DNA from: a phage
Sequence record: PZ166175.1
Length of the DNA: 44,735 nt
Direction: 5' to 3' (one strand)
Below, piece by piece: positions 15,171 to 36,702 of the stretch. The notes under the pieces are model-generated. The model was not told the origin of the DNA. It searched no databases and saw only the letters and a program-made list of their open reading frames with translations. Positions within the stretch are counted from its first letter, which is position 1. Every line of letters starts with the position of its first letter. Both the position numbers and the translations under genes were made by a program.

Positions 15171-17165
15171 TCAATCCTCCATAGTAAAAGATTTGTTTGC
15201 AATGATATCCTGACCTTTCTGGTTTTTTCTATGGGTCACCCGCAAAGGCTCACGAAATTGACTTGCATTAGTCATAATCATTCTTGCATTACGCAGCCTA
15301 CCTATTCTAAACGCCTCTGCTTTGCTCTGTATGTGAGTCTGACAAAATGCTTTCCACTTAACAGAGCAAACACGATGGTCACTTTCTGGAAAAAATGTTT
15401 CATATGCAATGAACTTCTGACCACTGTGAGCCATGATTTCATAACGGGCGACTATGCCAGTTTGGTTTTTAGTTAATCCAATGCTGAATCCGTAAACCCT
15501 CAACCAATCACCTTGTCGATACATCTTTCCAGACAATTTTGCGTTAGGGTCAATAAGCATTTCTCCGCAGCAGCGGCAGTTTTTAGCGGCGATATCATTC
15601 TTTTCACCGCAACCTTTCTTAATAGTAACTTTTGTCTGCGGGTCCTCTATATCTTCACATAAGCGAAATGTAAAAAAATGCTCACAACGCTTCCCGTCAA
15701 TTACGTTATTGCAACGACGAGCAAAAGGAGAGTTCTCGTAACTACAGGCCGGACATATTCTTGGCTTATCTCCGCCTTTGCGTGAAGACTTAAATTTCTG
15801 GTCCTGCACTTCCTCTATGATTGGGTCAAAGTACAATTCCGCCATGTCATCAAGAGTACCAGCGAAGTCTAGCACCACGTGATCATCCTTAACCATTCCC
15901 ATTTCCTTATGCTTATTCTTAAGAATTCGCATACCTCGCCCCAAAAGCTGAATCAGTAACGTGATGCTACCAACCTTGCGAAGAATTATTGACGTGTCCC
16001 ACGGCGGGACATTGACGCCAGTTGTGAGGCAACCAATCTGAAAGATGAATTTATACTTACCCTCAGATGCATCAGCTAGAATCTCACGACGCTTTTTCTC
16101 ACCTGTAGAGTCAGTTACTATTGCCCAGGTTACACCCTCAGGAAGCGCCTCGGCTGCCTCCTCGCAATGCCGCTTGCCTGAACAAGTTACTAGTGCTGCG
16201 TTACGAGTTTCCATAAACTTGGCTGCGAACTGCATAATCTTTTGCGTCATGGACTGGTTTTGATGAATTTTTTCCTGCATCGCATCCATTTCTTTCTTAC
16301 TAAAGTCTTTCACGCCATCACTACCGTCTGGAACAAACTCGCTAAGGTCGTAACCCAAATCACCAACCTCTCCGTAAACAGTTGGAACCACGAATCCCAA
16401 ATCAACAAGGTAATTTGTTGGAACCTGAATCACAGTTTTTCGCCAGAACCCACGAATGTTTGGATTACTAACGACGATATGATCATTGTTTCGATAAGGG
16501 CTACCAGTGAGGCCGAATATACGAAGCTCCCGCCCGTATTTTTCACGGCAGCGACGCTTCATCTCAGTGATTATTAGCGTGTACTGCGCACGACCAGTAC
16601 CAAGCAATCCAGTATTAACGCCATCCTTAAAAACCATCTCGCCTTTCTTTGTGCTCATTTGTTCAAATGTTTCTTCATTCTCTTCTGCTTCCACGATATC
16701 CATGTGATCGACCATGTGACACTCATCTATAGCTATAACGGCAGGAACATAGTCACCAAGCCCCTTAAATAAGCCATTAGCGGCCGTGCCCTCACTGGCA
16801 ACTATAGTTGGGTAGTAAACTGATTTAACGTTAAGGCCAGCGCAATATACGCTATTACGGATACCAAAATTACGAAGCTCTTCTGAGTTCTGGCTGATTA
16901 TCTCTGACTGGCGAGAAAGAACCATGTAAGGCAAGCCCAATTGCTCCATGCGCTTACCAATCATGGCGAGAATGATTGTCTTACCAGCCGATACGGAAAG
17001 ATCTGCGATAAATGGGGCCTCGTACTTGCCAATAGCCTTTCCGATTGCATCAAATGTAACGCACTGGAACTCGTAAGGGGTTATCTCGCCAAACTGGTAA
17101 TCTTTCTGAATCTGTTTAATTCTTTCTTTATCAAAGTTGGCAACCAGCTTATCGATAGGCAACAT
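15171..17165 (-). CDS. SF2 (DEAD/DExH-type) helicase with C-terminal Cys-rich zinc-ribbon-like region
   Basis: Walker A SVSAGKT, DExH box AIDECHM, Cys cluster CPACSY...RRCNN...CRCCGE. Confidence 0.7.
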   Translation of the reverse strand: MLPIDKLVANFDKERIKQIQKDYQFGEITPYEFQCVTFDAIGKAIGKYEAPFIADLSVSAGKTIILAMIGKRMEQLGLPYMVLSRQSEIISQNSEELRNFGIRNSVYCAGLNVKSVYYPTIVASEGTAANGLFKGLGDYVPAVIAIDECHMVDHMDIVEAEENEETFEQMSTKKGEMVFKDGVNTGLLGTGRAQYTLIITEMKRRCREKYGRELRIFGLTGSPYRNNDHIVVSNPNIRGFWRKTVIQVPTNYLVDLGFVVPTVYGEVGDLGYDLSEFVPDGSDGVKDFSKKEMDAMQEKIHQNQSMTQKIMQFAAKFMETRNAALVTCSGKRHCEEAAEALPEGVTWAIVTDSTGEKKRREILADASEGKYKFIFQIGCLTTGVNVPPWDTSIILRKVGSITLLIQLLGRGMRILKNKHKEMGMVKDDHVVLDFAGTLDDMAELYFDPIIEEVQDQKFKSSRKGGDKPRICPACSYENSPFARRCNNVIDGKRCEHFFTFRLCEDIEDPQTKVTIKKGCGEKNDIAAKNCRCCGEMLIDPNAKLSGKMYRQGDWLRVYGFSIGLTKNQTGIVARYEIMAHSGQKFIAYETFFPESDHRVCSVKWKAFCQTHIQSKAEAFRIGRLRNARMIMTNASQFREPLRVTHRKNQKGQDIIANKSFTMED

Positions 17166-18759: not shown

Positions 18760-18825
18760 ATGCCTGAAAGATGATACAATCCAATTTAGCAATTCTTGCT
18801 GTTTTACAAATGGAGACTTTACACA
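18760..18825 (+). promoter_or_regulatory. tail fiber promoter candidate (TGATACAAT) with palindrome TTTAGCAATTCTTGCTGTTTT downstream of the -10
   Basis: extended -10-like TGATACAAT then the cassette-type palindrome between -10 and start codon. Confidence 0.4.
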
Positions 18826-21231
18826 ATGGCAATTTATGACTTAGGAACAGCATCACTAGCTGCAAATGGCGAGGTGACTGGAGTCGGTACGACATGGAAA
18901 GCACCACTCACTCTAATTCGAGTTGGTGCAACTATTGTATTTAAAACTGAGCCAGTTAAGATTTATACTATCTCTGAAATTATCAGCGACACTCAGATTA
19001 ATGTTTATAACCCTAATTCTGAAACTGTTCCTGCTGGGACTGGTTACGCGATTCTTGCTCACGATGGAATTACAGTTCAGGGGTTGGCTCAGGATGTTGC
19101 AGAAACCCTTCGTTACTATCAGTCGCGTGAAACAGAAGTTGCAGATGCTGTTGATGCATTTAACAATTTTGACTCTGCTGATTTTAAATCAAAGGTAACG
19201 CAGGTAAACACGCAGTACGGTGATGTTGTTACGATTGCAGAACAGGTAAACACGAAGTACGGTGATATTGTTACGATTGCAGAACAGGTTTCAAGTGATG
19301 CATCATCATCACAAATTAACGCCACCAATGCATCATCTTCCGCCGATAGAGCACAAGCAGCGGCAAACTCCGTGTCTGGATCATTAACTTTAAACTTCTC
19401 AGATGGAGGAACGGTAGAGTCTAAAAATCAGCAGGTTTTATACATCAATGGAAGTGATGTTAAGTCTTATGTCTGGACTGGGTCATTCCCGAAGACGATT
19501 CCAGCTGGCTCAACCCCAGATAGCGCAGGTGGTGTTGGTGCTTACTCATGGGTCAAGATTTATGACTCAAACCTGTTTGATTACGATGGTTTAAGTTCAA
19601 TCGGTAAGGTTAAATCAGTTTCAGAGTTATCTTGTTTGTCAGGTGAGATTGGTATTACTACGATTGAGCTAGAGTCTTATGTGGCTGGATTCAACCTAGG
19701 CGGTGGTACTCTTATCGCGTCAGATGCATCACTTCAGGTTAATAATGTAACTGTTTTTTCAGGGGACGGCGTCACATGGAGCCGTAAACTTAACGGTAGA
19801 AGAGCAACAGTATATGATGCTGGTTACACTGGTGATGGTGATATAGCTGCGGCAATAAACTCAGTAAACATGGCTGGCCTTGACTGCGTTGTTCCTGTAG
19901 ATGGCCTTGTGCAATCACAGATAAACATCGACGTATCAAGAGGTTCATTGATAGGCGAGAACAAGTGCAATATTAAAGAGTCCCCTGGTGCTGTTGGTGA
20001 ATATTTCGTAAACATATTCAACTCAAATACTGATTATGTTGATAGAGACTCGATATCATCAACATCATTGATATCTGGGATTTCATTTACTGGCCTTGGA
20101 GCACGCAAGTTCTGTGTAGGTGGATCAACATCAGGTGAGACTGGCGAATTAAGAATCGAGAACTGCGGAATCATATCAACTGGTGGAATTGAGTTCTTAG
20201 ACAACTCATATAGGATTCTTTTTGATAAGTGCGCAATAAGCAGGAGTTTTAATGAGACAATAACTTTTAGGTCGAGAGCTAACTCTGGTGAAGTTATGAA
20301 GTTTAATCACTGCTGGATTGTAGATAACGGAGGCCCAATCACCTTTGAGAATGGTCAGTTTATTTTTGATTCATGCTCGTTACCGGCAGGTAAAAAGAGT
20401 GGCTATTTTGACCCCACAGTAAGTCTGCACGATAACGCGACGGTAGTTTTCTCAAATGGAAATATAGAGTATCAGCCAGGTCAGAACTTCGTATCATTCC
20501 TGGTCACGGGAAGTTCGAGATTAAGCATAAAAGACACCACCATTCTTGTTCCGGATGGTTTTACGTCTGTTCCAATCGTAAGTAATGATGATGGCGTTGT
20601 AATCTTGAATAATTGTTCGCTTCCTCTATACGGAAGTACCACAATTGCTTCTGGTTTCCAAGCAAGGCAAGTTGTCGGCGGGTCTAGTAAAAAGGTTATC
20701 GCGAGAGGGTGCTTTCCGAGGGCTGGATTCCCTGTTAGTGATTGGAGCAAGGGATCAATTGTTAGCCCTTACATTAACAGCTTAAGCAATGGCAGCGGAC
20801 AGTTTCAGAATACTTCCAACTGGTCACTGTCGCAAACTTCTTCTGGATCGGTTACTGCCTCTATTGTCTCGCAGGTGCCCACAGGTATAACTGCTCAGTT
20901 TGATAGGTCATTCCTTTTGAATGTACCTGACTTAAACTCATCAGCGAACTTTACCACTAATGCTTATGATTGCGAGCCGGGTAGATACTTCCAGTTCGGA
21001 TTTTGGGCCATGAACACAACAAAAACATTAGCAAGTATTAGATTTTTAGATATTTCTGGTAATGCTGTTGAGGAATCTGTAGGTTACTACATACCGAAAG
21101 GTGGTATCTTCTCTTTTTACGCTCTTATATCAACGGTTCCCCAGGGTGCATATAGAGCCGAGATAAACTTTAACGTAGGACCATCCACTGGCTACCTTAT
21201 GTTACACAATGTTATTTATGGATTGATTTAA
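18826..21231 (+). CDS. tail fiber protein (putative)
   Basis: ORF track 18796..21231, start moved to MAIYDLGTASLA...; long Ser/Thr/Gly/Asn-rich protein; internal tandem duplication. Confidence 0.6.
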   Translation: MAIYDLGTASLAANGEVTGVGTTWKAPLTLIRVGATIVFKTEPVKIYTISEIISDTQINVYNPNSETVPAGTGYAILAHDGITVQGLAQDVAETLRYYQSRETEVADAVDAFNNFDSADFKSKVTQVNTQYGDVVTIAEQVNTKYGDIVTIAEQVSSDASSSQINATNASSSADRAQAAANSVSGSLTLNFSDGGTVESKNQQVLYINGSDVKSYVWTGSFPKTIPAGSTPDSAGGVGAYSWVKIYDSNLFDYDGLSSIGKVKSVSELSCLSGEIGITTIELESYVAGFNLGGGTLIASDASLQVNNVTVFSGDGVTWSRKLNGRRATVYDAGYTGDGDIAAAINSVNMAGLDCVVPVDGLVQSQINIDVSRGSLIGENKCNIKESPGAVGEYFVNIFNSNTDYVDRDSISSTSLISGISFTGLGARKFCVGGSTSGETGELRIENCGIISTGGIEFLDNSYRILFDKCAISRSFNETITFRSRANSGEVMKFNHCWIVDNGGPITFENGQFIFDSCSLPAGKKSGYFDPTVSLHDNATVVFSNGNIEYQPGQNFVSFLVTGSSRLSIKDTTILVPDGFTSVPIVSNDDGVVILNNCSLPLYGSTTIASGFQARQVVGGSSKKVIARGCFPRAGFPVSDWSKGSIVSPYINSLSNGSGQFQNTSNWSLSQTSSGSVTASIVSQVPTGITAQFDRSFLLNVPDLNSSANFTTNAYDCEPGRYFQFGFWAMNTTKTLASIRFLDISGNAVEESVGYYIPKGGIFSFYALISTVPQGAYRAEINFNVGPSTGYLMLHNVIYGLI
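19201..19284 (+). repeat. 42-bp tandem duplication (x2) inside the tail fiber gene
   Basis: caggtaaacacgcagtacggtgatgttgttacgattgcagaa repeated with 2 mismatches; encodes QVNTQYGDVVTIAE / QVNTKYGDIVTIAE. Confidence 0.85.
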
Positions 21232-31984: not shown

Positions 31985-34963
31985 TTAGTTAAATCCGCGA
32001 AGGTACTGATAAGCTTTCCCACCCTGCTGGAAGGACTGAGCAATCTCTTCCGCTACGATGGCCTTGACGCCATTCTGCAATGCCTTGGCTTGCTCTGGGT
32101 CGCTACCGACACCTGAGTTTACGTTAACAGTGATGCCGCTAACATTAACATCCGAACCAACAGAAACCAAGCCGCCATTTGCATAACCAGATGGACCACC
32201 TACAGCGCCGCCGTTTGCATACCCCTTCATTAGCGCGTAAAGGTTTTTCACACCGATTCGGCTTGTAGCTTCTTTTGTGAATACAAACTCACCACGGTGC
32301 ACAGTGCCTGCTGGCTGGTACTTACCGCCGTCACCAGTGTAACCGCCACCGGCGAAACCTATAGCAGACGCAAAAGAGCCAAACGCATTACCTCCACCAC
32401 CACCAAAGCTAGTCAATGTTGACTCGATGGCCTTAACCAAAAGTAACTGAGTTGCAATCTTCGCAATCATTTTGAGGATGCTTGCTGTGAACTCCCTAAA
32501 ATTGGTCTCACCAGTGGTTACAAGGTTTGTAATTTGCTCTGTAATCCCTTCGAATGCCGCAACTGTCAAGTCCTTAGCAATCTTGTTGTAGTCTGTATAT
32601 TTATCAGTCAAGTCTGCAAGCGTTGATGTTACGCCAGCTTGCCAATCAGACCTAAGATTATCTTCCTGCTTGTAGTATTCCTTTCTTGCATCTAGTAACT
32701 GCTGAAAATCAACATCATCGACAGAACCACCAGCATTAACCTGATTGGATTGAAGTGCCTGAATTTCCTTAGCTCTTTGCTGCTCGCGAGATGATAATCC
32801 AGCCCCCAAATTAATATTGCTTGCTTCATTGTTAATCTGAATAATCTTCTTGCGGTTATCTTCAGCTAGCTTATTGGCTCTCTCCTGCAAAACAATCTGA
32901 TCACCTAGCTCAGCCTTCTGCCTGGATAACTCAAGAACCTTATCCTTTTCAATGAGAAGTCTTGCTTGCTCTTTTTTTATTGAGCCATCACGCTGTCTTT
33001 GCTCAAGAATCTGGAATTTTGCAACCTCCTGAAGATACTGCTTGCGCTCATTGCTTATTACTGAGCCAATATCCCTGTTTTCCTGAAGCACCTTGAGTTG
33101 TGCCTGTAGTGCAAGCACGCCAGATTCGTAACCAATTGTAAGGTCTCTTTGCTCTTTAACCCTACCATTTTCTTCTTTCCTGTTCTTCTTGATCGCATCA
33201 AGTTCATCCTGAAGCGCTTTCTTCCTTTTTGAAAACTCCTCATCCGTGCCTGACTGCTCATTGGTATTCTGATTTTCTCTGCGAGTAACGTAACCAAGTT
33301 CTCCTTCTCTGATTCTGGCATCGCGCTCCTTGATGGACTTCTCTAGCTCAAGGTTTTGCTTCTTAGCGGCATCGATAATCTTCTGCTGTCCCTTTATAAC
33401 ATCATCACCAACACCATCAAGGCCGGGGATGTTCTGCAATGCCTGTGTTGCGCTAATTACGAATTCACCAATCAGCACATCACCCTGGTTAATGAAGACC
33501 CTGATTTGCTCAATTGTTCCGGCAATTACGTCAACAAACAGGTTCAGCGCCCCAACCGTTCTACGACTAATTGCATCCCAGATATCAGAGATGTACTTCT
33601 TAAAGTCATTCCATGCCAATTCAAGTGGTGTCAATTGAGCTGCTATGTCGTTAAGGTTGGCTTCCTGCGACTTGCTGAAAATATCAATCGCGGCGGTAAC
33701 AGCCTCAACCTCTCCCTTTGTCTTTCTCAGGTTTTCGATTGTCGTCAACTGCCCCTGCGTGAGGAAGTTAAAGCGCTTATCCAAATCAACTAAACCCTGG
33801 ATTGGGTCGCTTGCAATCTGGTTATAGTAACCAGTAATCTCCTTCGCATCCTTACCTGTCAACTGCGCCCATCTGGCGGTTGATTTGGTAATCTTGTCAA
33901 TCTGCGTCAGCGTAAGGTTCCCTTGCTCAATAAGGCTTGTTGCGATGCTAGTCACAAGTCCTCTGGTGGCACCAGTAGCATCAGAAACAGAGCTAACCAA
34001 CTCTCTAACCTGCGAGATTGATGCGATTGTGGAGTTGTTTGAGAACACAATGGCAGAATTTAATGCTCTGAATTCACTCTCTGCCTGAGCGGCACCGATA
34101 CCGAGAGCAACAAGTGCCCCACCCAAAACGCCAACAGCAACATTGAATGGATTTAAGGCTTCGAGCGCGAATCTAAAGGTGTTACCAATACCTCCAAATG
34201 CATCCTTAATTTGTCCGCCTTGCTGAATTGCAATAAGCCAAATCGGAATGCCGCCAGCAAGTGATGTCCCAATATCTGTAATCTGCGCTGGCAATTGAGA
34301 GATTGCAGCCTTGTATTGACCCGCGCTTAAGCCAGAGCGTCGAAAGGCCTTGCTCTGAGCAATTAGCTGGGTGTTTGCCTTCTGTGATGCATCGGCGATT
34401 CTGTCAATAATAGGCGCTGCCTGAGAACTTACGCCAAGCTGAGCAGCCTGTAATTTTAAGTACTCCTCACGCGTCAATGTTGCCGCTTGAGCCTGTCGCT
34501 CAAGTGACTCAATGAACCTGTCAGCTTCAGCCTTCGCTTTTGCCTTATCCTTTGCGGCTTGAGCTGCTGCCCTACCCTCCTCAGTTAGCGCCGCACGTGA
34601 GCGAGCAAGCTTTGCGTTCTGCGTTTCAAGCGCCTCACCTAATCGGAAAAACTCCTCATCAGGAACCACGCCAGCCGCGAAAGCCTTATCCAGACCTACA
34701 GCAGCCTCCTGGAGTTTACGGAACTTTGCCGCAGTTGGATCAATAGCAGTTTGCAATTTAGCTAAAGATGCTTGTTGCTCAGCAAGTGCGCGAGCGGTAT
34801 CTCTAGCCTGGTTTTTAGCAACCTGCTCAGCGTTGACGAACTCACTAATACCGGAAGCGGCTTGCTGGTTTGCCTGCCTGAACTTCTGTAGTGATTGAGT
34901 GCCCCTGTCTACTTGCGCGACGTCTACGGCTAGTGTTATTCCGGCTAATTCATTTGTTGCCAT
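31985..34963 (-). CDS. tail tape measure protein
   Basis: 992-aa ORF, Ala/Gln-rich coiled-coil composition; downstream of G/T-like chaperone pair. Confidence 0.8.
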   Translation of the reverse strand: MATNELAGITLAVDVAQVDRGTQSLQKFRQANQQAASGISEFVNAEQVAKNQARDTARALAEQQASLAKLQTAIDPTAAKFRKLQEAAVGLDKAFAAGVVPDEEFFRLGEALETQNAKLARSRAALTEEGRAAAQAAKDKAKAKAEADRFIESLERQAQAATLTREEYLKLQAAQLGVSSQAAPIIDRIADASQKANTQLIAQSKAFRRSGLSAGQYKAAISQLPAQITDIGTSLAGGIPIWLIAIQQGGQIKDAFGGIGNTFRFALEALNPFNVAVGVLGGALVALGIGAAQAESEFRALNSAIVFSNNSTIASISQVRELVSSVSDATGATRGLVTSIATSLIEQGNLTLTQIDKITKSTARWAQLTGKDAKEITGYYNQIASDPIQGLVDLDKRFNFLTQGQLTTIENLRKTKGEVEAVTAAIDIFSKSQEANLNDIAAQLTPLELAWNDFKKYISDIWDAISRRTVGALNLFVDVIAGTIEQIRVFINQGDVLIGEFVISATQALQNIPGLDGVGDDVIKGQQKIIDAAKKQNLELEKSIKERDARIREGELGYVTRRENQNTNEQSGTDEEFSKRKKALQDELDAIKKNRKEENGRVKEQRDLTIGYESGVLALQAQLKVLQENRDIGSVISNERKQYLQEVAKFQILEQRQRDGSIKKEQARLLIEKDKVLELSRQKAELGDQIVLQERANKLAEDNRKKIIQINNEASNINLGAGLSSREQQRAKEIQALQSNQVNAGGSVDDVDFQQLLDARKEYYKQEDNLRSDWQAGVTSTLADLTDKYTDYNKIAKDLTVAAFEGITEQITNLVTTGETNFREFTASILKMIAKIATQLLLVKAIESTLTSFGGGGGNAFGSFASAIGFAGGGYTGDGGKYQPAGTVHRGEFVFTKEATSRIGVKNLYALMKGYANGGAVGGPSGYANGGLVSVGSDVNVSGITVNVNSGVGSDPEQAKALQNGVKAIVAEEIAQSFQQGGKAYQYLRGFN

Positions 34964-34976
34964 CTAAGCCTCCATA

Positions 34977-35008
34977 ATAGAAAACCCGCCGAAGCGGGTT
35001 ATTTTTTT
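34977..35008. terminator. bidirectional terminator-like hairpin upstream of tape measure gene
   Basis: AACCCGC-cgaa-GCGGGTT with T-runs on both sides. Confidence 0.5.
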
Positions 35009-35310
35009 CTCAGGTTATCCATCATCTCAAGAGCCTTAGCTTCAAGGATGCGTAAATCGCTGAGTACCAATTCTTCTTCAGAAACATTATACACTCTAAA
35101 GAGGAAATTTAGCACGTTGTAATCTAGCCCTGTAGCTCCGTTAGCTCCGACTCTCCACTGCGTAGCCATTGAACAATAAATGTCCCACGCCTTCATCATG
35201 TTGTCGTCGAAGTGCAAAACCTCAGGCTCTTCGTCTTCGTAATCAGAGCGGCGCATCCCAATAGCTTCCAGTTCGGCATCTGTTGGCTCTGACTGGTACT
35301 GTAGATACAC
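34999..35310 (-). CDS. tail assembly chaperone, gpT-like frameshift extension
   Basis: ORF in the -1 frame relative to 35319..35633; slippery heptamer A_AAA_AAC at the junction. Confidence 0.6.
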   Translation of the reverse strand: MYLQYQSEPTDAELEAIGMRRSDYEDEEPEVLHFDDNMMKAWDIYCSMATQWRVGANGATGLDYNVLNFLFRVYNVSEEELVLSDLRILEAKALEMMDNLRKK

Positions 35311-35318
35311 CGCCCTCT

Positions 35319-35633
35319 TTAGTTTTTTACCCGCTGGCCTGCCAGTGCCTGCATATAAGCGGTAGTAAGTGCAACGGTTGAGGCTGGGAACAGGTCGGAG
35401 AACTCATTAACGTTATCCTCGTTGTATTCTTCTTCCAGATCCCAATCAGAAGCAATTGCCATGATAAGTTCTTTGGTGCTCAAATCTTCCTTGCTAAGCA
35501 ATTCCTGCAACTCAGATGTTTTCTTATGCTTGACTGTAAAGATAACCTCTACATCCTGGTCGTTAGCCAGCTTGAATTTTACCGGAAGCTTGAAGTCTGG
35601 CAGCGCCGCCAGTGAAAGTTTGAACTTTGCCAT
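35319..35633 (-). CDS. tail assembly chaperone (gpG-like)
   Basis: 104-aa acidic ORF between major tail and tape measure genes; ends ...GTA AAA AAC TAA. Confidence 0.6.
   Translation of the reverse strand: MAKFKLSLAALPDFKLPVKFKLANDQDVEVIFTVKHKKTSELQELLSKEDLSTKELIMAIASDWDLEEEYNEDNVNEFSDLFPASTVALTTAYMQALAGQRVKN
35322..35328 (-). other. programmed -1 ribosomal frameshift site A_AAA_AAC
   Basis: heptamer in zero-frame codons AAA AAC one codon before the gpG-like stop; -1 frame reads into 34999..35310. Confidence 0.6.
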
Positions 35634-35682
35634 CTTAGTTAATCCTCTTATTGTTTGTGAGTATGTATTCTATTACTTAGTT

Positions 35683-35920
35683 CTTTCTTTTGCAATCTTA
35701 GCGGCTGAGTCCTTACAAACCTCCTTGCCATATTTCATGATTTGGTCAACTTTACCACCCGCAAGTTCCTGGCATGCTCGCTCAGCCTTAGAAAATTCAA
35801 CAGTATATTTGTTTGCCTTGCTATTTGCACCAGCCTCGCCAGTTGGGTTAACAATCTGAACTACTGCATAAAAAGCAACCAGAACTGCAGCAAGCTTGAT
35901 AATTTTTTAACGTTATTCAT
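35683..35920 (-). pseudogene. small secreted-protein gene interrupted by a frameshift at an A6 run
   Basis: ATG after RBS AAGGAA gives MNNVKK then stops after 19 codons; the -1 frame continues for about 70 aa; one extra A restores an 85-aa signal-peptide ORF. Confidence 0.4.
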
Positions 35921-35924
35921 TTCT

Positions 35925-36000
35925 TAATTCCTTCATTTCGTTTCGATGAGTTAACTATACAGGAAGATTGCATTAACGCTTTAGCAAAAAGTGCCATGCA
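35925..36000 (-). promoter_or_regulatory. early promoter cassette inside the late operon
   Basis: minus sense: CACTTTTTGCTAAAG, 22 nt, TATAGT, TAACTCATCGAAAC. Confidence 0.45.
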
Positions 36001-36001
36001 A

Positions 36002-36024
36002 TAAAAAACCCTCCGAAGAGGGTT
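36002..36024 (-). terminator. rho-independent terminator downstream of major tail protein gene
   Basis: AACCCTC-cgaa-GAGGGTT followed by TTTTTTAT in minus sense. Confidence 0.6.
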
Positions 36025-36030
36025 TGTGCT

Positions 36031-36687
36031 TTAAACTTCAGCTGCCACAGAGGACAGACGACCACGAATGGATACAGCTATGGATACCGTTTCGATTTCG
36101 TTAACACCAATGGTAGGGGTGTCGTTGAAAGCGATAGTGCCGGACTGCAGACGCATTTCCTGAGCGCGAGGTACAAACAGACGAATAGCAACAACCTGGC
36201 CAGACTCATCGTAGTTACGCAGGACAGGATAAACCGGGTTAGTGTACTCATGAGCGAAGGTGAAGGTGTTCGTTACCGCAGATTTATAAGTAGGAATCTG
36301 CTGCTCACGGTCATCAGAAAGACACTGGAAGTTAACGAACTGCTGTTCGCCGCCATCAGTGGAAACGTCCTGAACGCACGGAACTTCGAACCATGAAGTA
36401 ATCTTAACAACCTCACCAGTTAAGCCAGCAGGGAACTTAGTGGTGTTGGAGGTATCAATACCTTCAACTGTTACCGAAGTGCCAGAAACTTCAGTTACTC
36501 TCACCTGCTTGTCGCTAAGTAGGGTTGAGCTGGAGGCGGTAAACAGAAGGTAGTCACCCTTAGCCAGGCCGGATCCGTCAGATACAGTTAAAACAGGGGT
36601 AGCTGCGTTAGAGATTGCAGTTACGTTAATTGCAGTTCCGCGAGATCCTTCTACGAAGACCTGCGTGCCATTTGATAAATGAGCCAT
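36031..36687 (-). CDS. major tail protein (putative)
   Basis: 218-aa ORF upstream of the chaperone pair with a strong terminator after it. Confidence 0.5.
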   Translation of the reverse strand: MAHLSNGTQVFVEGSRGTAINVTAISNAATPVLTVSDGSGLAKGDYLLFTASSSTLLSDKQVRVTEVSGTSVTVEGIDTSNTTKFPAGLTGEVVKITSWFEVPCVQDVSTDGGEQQFVNFQCLSDDREQQIPTYKSAVTNTFTFAHEYTNPVYPVLRNYDESGQVVAIRLFVPRAQEMRLQSGTIAFNDTPTIGVNEIETVSIAVSIRGRLSSVAAEV

Positions 36688-36702
36688 GTATTTTTCCTTT
36701 TG

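What the first reader, a model, noticed from the sequence alone, without database searches (positions are those of the whole stretch)
35300..35640. Programmed -1 frameshift site A_AAA_AAC joining the two tail chaperone ORFs
The gpG-like ORF ends ...GTA AAA AAC TAA. The heptamer A_AAA_AAC is a canonical slippery sequence, and the -1 frame runs straight into the downstream ORF (34999..35310), giving a G-T fusion as in the conserved tail assembly chaperone frameshift. A standard gene caller would annotate two separate ORFs.
Basis: partly seen in the sequence, partly recalled or inferred. Interest (0 to 1): 0.5.

Follow-up and report, generated by a model that had tools for sequence, protein, structure and literature searches.

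The report
Tail chaperone G/GT −1 frameshift site
This is the standard programmed ribosomal slip that lets a T1-like E. coli phage make a short and a long tail-assembly chaperone from one message; it is real, conserved across the phage family, and already annotated in a close relative, so it is ordinary.

Summary
On the minus strand, a 104-codon ORF (35633..35319, Pfam Phage_TAC_4) ends GTA AAA AAC TAA. The in-phase heptamer A_AAA_AAC is at 35328..35322. The −1 frame has no stop from 35403 to 34999 and encodes a DUF1799 'T' segment. The pair lies between the major tail gene and the tape measure gene.

The 211-aa fusion matches a PHROG family of fused chaperones in one stretch (E=3e-81). Of 49 distinct relatives, down to about 50% protein identity and including phage T1, 43 keep the exact heptamer plus adjacent stop, while nearby synonymous sites vary freely. 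Other relatives carry other Lys-codon slip motifs at the same position. The T-frame peptide LKRAVYL is conserved from the slip site onward. In most relatives it lies 19-43 codons upstream of any start codon.

A 72-nt hairpin starts 5 nt downstream. It is the most stable 80-nt fold in 3.2 kb of the tail operon, but no compensatory base changes support it.

Phage OzMSK (91.5% identical, same junction) already carries a joined frameshift CDS. Verdict: a genuine, already known G/GT −1 frameshift. Interest is low. No fusion protein has been measured here.

The parts
35319..35633 (-). G gene: short tail assembly (tape measure) chaperone, 104 aa, made by standard decoding
   Evidence: ORF. PF08748 Phage_TAC_4 at E=6e-33, 114 bits against a cutoff of 21.1, full length. 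AlphaFold model (pLDDT 81.7) matches BFVD 'Tape measure chaperone' proteins at TM 0.8-0.85.
35322..35328 (-). Slippery heptamer A_AAA_AAC (codons GT[A AAA AAC]); base 35322 is read twice after the −1 slip
   Evidence: Sequence. It is the only in-phase X_XXY_YYZ heptamer in G. It is identical in 43 of 49 distinct relatives, including T1.
35319..35321 (-). G stop codon TAA, directly 3' of the heptamer
   Evidence: It is TAA or TGA in all 43 relatives that carry the canonical motif.
34999..35322 (-). T segment in the −1 frame: 107 codons (LKRAVYLQYQ...RKK) plus stop. GT fusion = join(35633..35322, 35322..34999), 211 aa
   Evidence: No stop in the −1 frame from 35403 to 35002. PF08809 DUF1799 at E=5.5e-16. 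The fusion matches phrog_17368 positions 1-210 of 213 in one stretch at E=3.3e-81.
35245..35316 (-). Predicted 72-nt stem-loop starting 5 nt after the heptamer; candidate frameshift stimulator
   Evidence: MFE −34.8 kcal/mol, the most stable of 625 80-nt windows over 36700..33500 (mean −16.5, sd 4.6). z=−4.6 against shuffles. The stem is retained in all 10 clade members checked, but without compensatory changes.
35308..35318 (-). AGAGGG (35318..35313) plus GTG (35310..35308): possible independent start for T. Found only in this clade and lies inside the 5' arm of the hairpin
   Evidence: GTG is the first T-frame start codon only in the window clade. Elsewhere the homologous Val codon is GTT, GTC or GTA. 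The OzMSK annotation note mentions an independent RBS.
36031..36687 (-). Major tail tube protein gene (context, upstream)
   Evidence: PF08813 Phage_tail_3 at E=2e-68 and phrog_584.
31985..34963 (-). Tape measure protein gene (context, downstream)
   Evidence: PF06791 TMP_2 at E=7e-50, PF09718, and phrog_24.

Best explanation
The window is a T1-like E. coli siphophage (Drexlerviridae, Braunvirinae-like). Ribosomes translating the tail chaperone gene G (35633..35319) mostly terminate at TAA and give the 104-aa protein G.

A minority slip back one nucleotide on A_AAA_AAC (35328..35322). The lysine tRNA re-pairs from AAA to AAA and the asparagine tRNA from AAC to AAA. Decoding then continues with CTA AAG AGG... 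in the −1 frame to 34999, giving a 211-aa GT protein (...QRVKN-LKRAVYL...).

By analogy with lambda G/GT, the shared G part binds the tape measure protein and the T part recruits the major tail protein. Neither protein ends up in the virion. The fixed low slip rate sets the G:GT ratio.

The 72-nt hairpin 5 nt downstream (35316..35245) probably pauses the ribosome and raises the slip rate on what is an intrinsically weak heptamer in E. coli. The adjacent stop codon may contribute.

Shown here: the sequence anatomy, family membership, and conservation of the site and of T-frame coding. Inferred: that the slip occurs, its rate, the role of the hairpin, and the protein functions.
For: - Anatomy: heptamer phase, stop codon and open −1 frame are as described.
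- Gene order is tail tube, G, T, tape measure, with Pfam TAC_4 and DUF1799.
- The fusion matches phrog_17368 in one stretch at 273 bits. Scanned separately against the same profile, the two halves score 111 and 148 bits.
- 43 of 49 distinct relatives, including T1 itself, keep GTA/GCA/ACA AAA AAC TAA/TGA while upstream third positions are saturated.
- Where the heptamer is absent, another Lys-codon slip motif sits at the same codon: A_AAG_GGT, A_AAG, or A_AAA_AGC/AGT.
- The T-frame peptide LKRAVYL is conserved directly after the slip site with synonymous codon changes (AAG AGG / AAA CGG). In most relatives the first T-frame start codon lies 19-43 codons further on.
- Gene callers give truncated 83-85-aa T proteins in other lineages.
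- 39 of 51 distinct loci have a downstream fold in the top 5% of local windows. In the window it is the top window.
- PQ659294 annotates the joined frameshift CDS at the identical junction.
- UniProt/BFVD holds short and long 'tape measure chaperone' isoforms in relatives.
- A_AAA_AAC is a proven −1 site in E. coli IS1 (PMC4066793). [quoted passage not shown] A frameshift in T1-like chaperones has been noted for phage Skenny (PMC6763657).
Against: - No protein or ribosome-profiling evidence exists for this phage. I found none for any T1-like phage in the library searched.
- In E. coli, A_AAA_AAC belongs to the less efficient class, because the shift from AAC to AAA is non-cognate (PMC4066793).
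- The hairpin has no covariation support. In the T1-type alignment only 2 pairs change on both sides, no more than in shuffles. In the window clade, variation in paired sites is 6/54 against 43/264 elsewhere (p=0.41), and all changes are one-sided.
- Some lineages lack a strong downstream fold.
- In this clade a GTG with a nearby AGAGGG could allow some independent T synthesis.
Confidence: 0.88

Rival explanations
1. T is made on its own. Ribosomes initiate, or re-initiate after terminating at TAA, at GTG 35310..35308 using the AGAGGG 35318..35313 as a Shine-Dalgarno sequence. This gives a free 103-aa T protein, and the heptamer is incidental.
For: GTG preceded by GAGG exists in the window and its close relatives. 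The OzMSK annotators note an 'independent RBS'. Most GenBank records annotate T as a separate gene.
Against: - The GTG is confined to this clade. The homologous codon is GTT, GTC or GTA in T1-type and Rogunavirus-type relatives.
- In those relatives the conserved LKRAVYL... lies upstream of any start codon.
- The spacing from GAGG to GTG is only 3 nt, and the site lies in the 5' arm of a −34.8 kcal/mol hairpin.
- Some clade members have AACGAG instead of AGAGGG.
- This rival does not explain the invariance of the heptamer.
Confidence: 0.05
2. The fusion arises from transcriptional slippage. RNA polymerase occasionally adds one A in the A6 run, giving mRNAs in which G and T are in frame, with junction ...VKK-LKR...
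For: An A6 run is present, and inserting one A gives exactly the T frame. Two IMG/VR contigs differ in run length (A5), showing that the run is error-prone for polymerases or sequencers.
Against: - From my own knowledge, not tested here: efficient slippage by bacterial RNA polymerase usually needs runs of about 9 or more A or T.
- The C after the run, the adjacent stop and a hairpin 5-7 nt downstream are conserved. Those are features of ribosomal frameshift signals.
- Variant sites in relatives (A_AAG_GGT, A_AAG_GTC) have only three A's and cannot support polymerase slippage, yet keep the same architecture.
- The same heptamer in IS1 is listed as a proven case of −1 ribosomal frameshifting (PMC4066793).
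Confidence: 0.04
3. The heptamer is a chance feature of a Lys-Asn C-terminus. G and T are two unrelated adjacent genes with no fusion.
For: AAAAAAC occurs at the chance rate in the window (12 against 12.6 expected).
Against: - The nucleotide motif is invariant in 43 of 49 relatives against saturated synonymous sites. AAC is never AAT, and the codon before AAA always ends in A even when the amino acid changes (V, A or T).
- T lacks a conserved start codon.
- A fused family (phrog_17368) and annotated joined CDSs exist.
Confidence: 0.02

Closest known systems
Phage lambda G/GT tail assembly chaperone −1 frameshift (Levin, Hendrix & Casjens 1993; Xu, Hendrix & Duda 2004, 2013, 2014, as summarised in PMC5009743)
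   Same: Two ORFs between the major tail gene and the tape measure gene. The slip site is near the 3' end of G. The −1 frame extension gives GT. The expected low G:GT ratio would set tail assembly stoichiometry. The tape measure protein here also carries lambda-type domains (PF09718).
   Different: The heptamer is A_AAA_AAC rather than lambda's G_GGA_AAG. The stop codon directly abuts the heptamer. G and T belong to other Pfam families (TAC_4, DUF1799), and no sequence similarity to lambda G or T was detected. A strong downstream hairpin is predicted here.
T1-like phage chaperone pair: T1 gp40/gp39, and the joined 'tape measure chaperone' CDS of Escherichia phage vB_ecoS_OzMSK (PQ659294)
   Same: Homologous genes in the same order. 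The OzMSK junction is identical (GTA AAA AAC TAA AGAGGGCGGTG). T1 has GCA AAA AAC TAA. 895 GenBank phage records contain both halves.
   Different: T1-type relatives carry a compact hairpin (GGGCGGTTT...AAGCCGCCC) 6-7 nt downstream. The window clade instead pairs the same 5' arm with a 3' arm about 55 nt further on, giving a 72-nt hairpin. T1 RefSeq annotates T only as a truncated 55-aa ORF.
IS1 insAB' −1 frameshift
   Same: The same A_AAA_AAC heptamer, working in E. coli, in the low-efficiency class (PMC4066793).
   Different: IS1 has no established stimulator (PMC4066793), whereas a strong hairpin is predicted here. The proteins are unrelated (transposase against chaperone).
E. coli dnaX −1 frameshift (A_AAA_AAG with upstream SD-like element and downstream hairpin)
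   Same: An A-rich Lys heptamer decoded by the single E. coli lysine tRNA, with a downstream hairpin at about 5-6 nt.
   Different: The last base is C, not G, so A-site re-pairing is non-cognate. No conserved SD-like element lies upstream, and the upstream third positions vary freely. Here frameshifting lengthens the product, whereas in dnaX it shortens it.

Membership tests
Conserved tail assembly chaperone G/GT −1 frameshift of long-tailed phages | Two small ORFs located between the major tail protein gene and the tape measure gene | tested here: met
   Order on the minus strand: tail tube 36687..36031, G 35633..35319, T to 34999, tape measure 34963..31985.
Conserved tail assembly chaperone G/GT −1 frameshift of long-tailed phages | The second ORF is in the −1 frame, overlaps the end of the first, and has no stop between slip site and T | tested here: met
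   The −1 frame is open from 35403 to 35002, with an 82-nt overlap upstream of the G stop.
Conserved tail assembly chaperone G/GT −1 frameshift of long-tailed phages | In-phase slippery sequence (X_XXY_YYZ) inside the overlap | tested here: met
   A_AAA_AAC at 35328..35322, the only such heptamer in G.
Conserved tail assembly chaperone G/GT −1 frameshift of long-tailed phages | Slip site and two-frame arrangement conserved among relatives despite sequence divergence | tested here: met
   43 of 49 distinct sequences have the identical heptamer. The −1 frame is open for 104-107 codons past the G stop in all loci with an intact A6 run or variant slip motif. Variant Lys slip motifs sit at the same position in others.
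Conserved tail assembly chaperone G/GT −1 frameshift of long-tailed phages | T has no translation start of its own and is made only as GT | tested here: inconclusive
   Across the family the conserved T-frame residues precede any start codon. The window clade, however, has a GTG with a weak, closely spaced SD-like sequence at 35310.
Conserved tail assembly chaperone G/GT −1 frameshift of long-tailed phages | GT fusion protein made at a low fixed ratio to G and required for tail assembly | not testable with these tools
   Needs proteomics, reporter assays or genetics.
Pfam PF08748 Phage_TAC_4 (G) and PF08809 DUF1799 (T) | Score above the curated gathering threshold | tested here: met
   G scores 114.1 bits against 21.1. 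T scores 59 bits against 26.
phrog_17368 (fused chaperone family, 213 positions) | Collinear end-to-end match of the conceptual fusion through the junction | tested here: met
   Residues 1-207 against profile positions 1-210 of 213, one stretch, E=3.3e-81.
−1 PRF signals with a downstream RNA stimulator | Stable structure starting 5-9 nt after the heptamer | tested here: met
   The hairpin 35316..35245 starts 5 nt downstream, MFE −34.8, top of 625 windows. 39 of 51 relatives are in the top 5% of local windows.
−1 PRF signals with a downstream RNA stimulator | Base pairs supported by compensatory changes | tested here: not met
   The T1-type hairpin has only 2 double changes, not above shuffles. 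The window clade shows one-sided changes only, with no reduced variation in stems (p=0.41).
dnaX/IS911-type signals with upstream SD-like stimulator | Conserved SD-like element 6-17 nt upstream of the heptamer | tested here: not met
   The upstream codons GCN CTN GCN GGN CAR CGN vary freely at third positions, and no conserved GGAGG-like element is present.
Rfam frameshift elements | Match to a curated covariance model | tested here: not met
   Only two sub-threshold chance hits, both at the terminator hairpin.

The most novel reading that the evidence does not exclude
In this Braunvirinae-type clade the frameshift stimulator may have been rebuilt. The conserved 5' arm (GGGCGG, coding K-R-A-V of T) no longer pairs with the nearby AAGCCGCC arm used by T1-type phages. 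It pairs instead with a new 3' arm about 55 nt downstream (GAUGCGCCGCUCU), forming a 72-nt hairpin that is the most stable fold in the tail operon.

Together with the stop codon that always abuts the slip site, this could mean two things. Slip efficiency on the weak A_AAA_AAC site may be set by lineage-specific RNA structure and by competition with termination. The same hairpin may also mask the clade-specific GTG start of T.
Probability: 0.35. Interest if true: 0.3.

Novelty: already known. Interest (0 to 1): 0.12.

Why it matters
Its practical value is for annotation. The correct product of this locus is a 104-aa G plus a 211-aa GT, join(35633..35322, 35322..34999), not two independent genes. 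Most deposited relatives, including the T1 reference genome, still list two separate or truncated ORFs.

The family-wide comparison adds a small point for people who study recoding. Drexlerviridae keep a weak E. coli heptamer, A_AAA_AAC, directly against a stop codon and usually followed by a hairpin. Some relatives use other Lys-codon slip motifs at the same codon instead. This makes the family a convenient natural series for testing how heptamer, stop codon and hairpin jointly set a low frameshift rate. It opens no new question.

Tried and rejected
- PDB by sequence (phmmer with the fusion): no hit at E≤1.
- Foldseek of the G model against PDB: nothing below E=0.87. Only BFVD viral models matched.
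- NCBIfam: no family for the fusion.
- Rfam at E≤1 on 34900..35700: no frameshift element.
- Covariation for the T1-type hairpin and a substitution-pattern test for the window-clade hairpin gave no support beyond thermodynamics. I therefore do not claim the hairpin is proven.
- Upstream SD-like stimulator: rejected, because the upstream synonymous sites are not conserved.
- Other slip sites in the overlap: only the tetramer C_CCA (35388) lies in the overlap besides the heptamer. It is a weak motif and I did not pursue it.
- Xu et al. 2004 and 2013 could not be read because they are not held. Statements about lambda rest on PMC5009743 and on my own knowledge.
- The two IMG/VR contigs with five A's (L042, L055) put T in the +1 frame. 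I treated these as probable homopolymer errors, not as a different mechanism.

Full report
**1. What is in the sequence**

The genes here run on the minus strand.
- A 104-codon ORF starts with ATG at 35633 and ends ...GCA GGC CAG CGG GTA AAA AAC TAA, with the stop at 35321..35319.
- The heptamer A_AAA_AAC is at 35328..35322. It is in the phase needed for tandem −1 slippage (GT[A AAA AAC]).
- The −1 frame carries no stop from 35403 to the TAA at 35001..34999.
- A ribosome that slips at the heptamer would continue CTA AAG AGG GCG GTG TAT... for 107 more codons. That gives a 211-aa protein, ...AGQRVKN-LKRAVYLQYQ...RKK.

Every coordinate in the finding is correct.

**2. Is it more than chance?**

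The string AAAAAAC is not enriched: 12 copies against 12.6 expected. Of the 12, only this copy has a long in-phase ORF upstream (114 codons) and a long open −1 frame downstream (109 codons). It is also the only in-phase X_XXY_YYZ heptamer in the gene. The real argument is comparative and follows in section 4.

**3. What the genes are**

- The upstream ORF is a full-length match to Pfam PF08748 Phage_TAC_4, a tail assembly chaperone (E=6e-33, 114 bits against a cutoff of 21).
- The −1 frame segment matches PF08809 DUF1799 (E=5.5e-16).
- The flanking genes are the tail tube protein (36687..36031, PF08813) and the tape measure protein (34963..31985, PF06791 and PF09718).
- In PHROGs, G matches positions 1-107 and T positions 109-210 of phrog_17368.
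- The conceptual fusion matches phrog_17368 in a single stretch, residues 1-207 against profile positions 1-210 of 213, at E=3.3e-81. So a family of fused proteins of this design already exists.
- An AlphaFold model of G (pLDDT 81.7) matches BFVD models named 'Tape measure chaperone'. These include a 210-aa long form from Klebsiella phage Solomon, and both the 129-aa and 236-aa forms from Serratia phage Scapp (TM 0.79-0.85).
- PDB gave nothing by sequence or by fold. NCBIfam gave nothing.

**4. Relatives**

The region is 90-92% identical to a group of E. coli siphophages. The closest match for G-T is phage BEK3, classified in Drexlerviridae, Braunvirinae, at 99.1% protein identity. Veterinaerplatzvirus, which is among the hits, is also in Braunvirinae. 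By tblastn, 1136 GenBank phage records match the fusion, and 895 of them contain both halves as two pieces.

I collected 55 IMG/VR loci, several GenBank loci and four Logan (public sequencing-run) assembly contigs, with G identity down to about 50%.

*The heptamer.* Of 49 distinct sequences, 43 have the exact A_AAA_AAC followed directly by TAA or TGA. In the nine codons upstream (…Y-x-x-A-L-A-G-Q-R) the third positions carry 1.0-1.96 bits of entropy. When the residue before Lys changes (Val, Ala or Thr), its codon still ends in A. T1 itself reads GCA AAA AAC TAA.

*Variant slip sites.* Other relatives keep the same architecture with a different slip motif at the same codon:
- GCA AAG GTC TAA, the tetramer A_AAG (L012-L016);
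- GTA AAG GGT TAA, the heptamer A_AAG_GGT (L061);
- GCA AAA AGC/AGT TAA (L059, L060).

The constant element is a Lys codon preceded by A. This points to slippage of the single E. coli lysine tRNA as the core event. Two contigs have only five A's, which puts T in the +1 frame. I regard these as homopolymer errors.

*Coding in the T frame.* The peptide LKRAVYL(Q/Y/F)YQ begins directly at the slip site and is conserved through synonymous changes (AAG AGG / AAA CGG / AAA AGG; GTG/GTT/GTC/GTA). In most relatives the first ATG, GTG or TTG in that frame lies 19-43 codons further downstream. Those codons can only be translated by ribosomes arriving from G. Consistent with this, gene callers produce T proteins truncated to 83-85 aa in other lineages. 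T1 RefSeq annotates only a 55-aa remnant.

**5. Downstream RNA structure**

In the window, a 72-nt stem-loop (35316..35245) starts 5 nt after the heptamer.
- Its MFE is −34.8 kcal/mol.
- It is the most stable of 625 overlapping 80-nt windows over 3.2 kb of the tail operon (mean −16.5, sd 4.6).
- z = −4.6 against dinucleotide shuffles.

T1-type relatives instead have a compact hairpin, GGGCGGTTT-loop-AAGCCGCCC, 6-7 nt downstream. The 5' arm (GGGCGG) is shared between the two types, but the 3' arm lies at a different place.

Across 51 distinct loci, 39 have a downstream fold in the top 5% of windows from their own locus. This is the best of two window sizes, so about 10% would be expected by chance. 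The Rogunavirus-type loci (L011-L016) and a few others do not.

Compensatory changes do not support either hairpin. The structure is therefore a well-placed, thermodynamically outstanding candidate stimulator, not a demonstrated one. No conserved SD-like element lies upstream, and no Rfam family matches.

**6. Mechanism and its rivals**

The best explanation is the standard one. Most ribosomes terminate and give G. A small fraction slip −1 on A_AAA_AAC and make GT.

According to Sharma et al. 2014 (PMC4066793), heptamers whose A-site codon re-pairs non-cognately, such as AAC to AAA, are less efficient in E. coli. The same paper lists A_AAA_AAC as the proven IS1 site and A_AA.G as the best tetramer. 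A low rate fits the chaperone system, in which lambda needs about 30 G per GT (PMC5009743).

Three sub-pathways cannot be told apart from sequence:
- a tandem slip, giving junction VKN-LKR;
- a P-site slip of the Asn tRNA while the stop codon waits in the A site, giving the same product;
- a Lys-tRNA slip with an empty A site, giving VKK-LKR.

The rivals are weaker.
- *Independent initiation of T at GTG 35310.* This is possible only in this clade. The SD spacing is 3 nt and the site is buried in the hairpin. It explains neither the conserved heptamer nor the start-less T of relatives.
- *RNA polymerase slippage on A6.* This is unlikely for so short a run. It cannot work on the A_AAG variants in relatives.
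- *Pure chance.* This is excluded by the conservation.

**7. Comparison with what is known; novelty**

This is a member of the conserved tail-assembly-chaperone frameshift class first shown in lambda. The specific T1-like version is already recognised.
- The announcement of the T1-like phage Skenny mentions the frameshift (PMC6763657).
- A 2026 Nature paper refers to long and short chaperone isoforms generated through programmed frameshifting (PMC13581612).
- Most other records still annotate two genes.

The feature is already known and of low interest. The only mildly new observations are at family level: the heptamer-plus-stop design, the interchangeable Lys slip motifs, and the apparent relocation of the hairpin's 3' arm in this clade.

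**8. Not shown**

No experiment or proteomic data was available. The existence and abundance of GT in this phage, the role of the hairpin, and the functions of G and T are inferred by homology and analogy.

Noticed in passing
window 35920..35673 (minus strand): The small gene between the tail tube gene and G looks frameshifted in this window. Relatives (OzMSK, G8, BEK3) have an 82-aa ORF starting ATG AAT AAC GTT AAA AAC ATT/ATC ATC AAG... with a hydrophobic N-terminus. Here GTTAAAAACATTATC reads GTTAAAAAATTATC (35911..35898), so one base is missing. The ATG frame stops after 19 codons (TAG 35863..35861), and the conserved remainder is in the −1 frame without a canonical start. This could be a sequencing error, a real inactivating mutation, or a second −1 slip on the A run.
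   Followed up: partly
window 36025..36006 and 35000..34983 (minus strand): Terminator-like GC hairpins with T tails lie after the tail tube gene and between T and the tape measure gene. T1 has annotated rho-independent terminators at the same two positions (18770-18796 and 19508-19527). The second also scores on the plus strand, so it may be bidirectional, and is preceded by an A7 run at the end of T. They probably attenuate transcription to grade the amounts of tail proteins.
   Followed up: partly
L012-L016, L059-L061 (relatives): Some relatives replace A_AAA_AAC by other slip motifs at the same codon: GCA AAG GTC TAA, GTA AAG GGT TAA, and GCA AAA AGC/AGT TAA. The Lys codon preceded by A is the only constant. 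The L012-L016 and L059/L060 lineages also lack a strong downstream hairpin; L061 has one (top 2.4% of its own 80-nt windows).
   Followed up: partly
L042 and L055 (IMG/VR contigs): These two contigs have five A's instead of six at the slip site (GTA AAA ACT AAA...). That extends G by 17-26 codons and puts T in the +1 frame. The likely cause is homopolymer errors in those assemblies.
   Followed up: no
L058 (phage T1 RefSeq NC_005833) 18872..19506: The T1 reference annotation lists ST40 (G) and only a truncated ST39 (19339..19506, 55 aa) as separate genes named 'tail length tape measure protein'. The sequence nevertheless has GCA AAA AAC TAA at 19178..19189 and an open −1 frame from there to the stop at 19504..19506. 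The reference genome lacks the joined CDS.
   Followed up: yes
window 15222..15228 (minus strand): A second in-phase A_AAA_AAC lies 18 codons before the end of a long ORF (657 codons open upstream). The −1 frame there is open for only 20 codons, so a slip would merely swap a short C-terminal tail. This is probably chance, and I did not examine it further.
   Followed up: no
whole region; GenBank MG065688: The best DNA match for 31985..36700 is a record named Campylobacter phage A110b (91.8%). Every other close relative is an E. coli Drexlerviridae phage, so the host label of that record looks doubtful.
   Followed up: no
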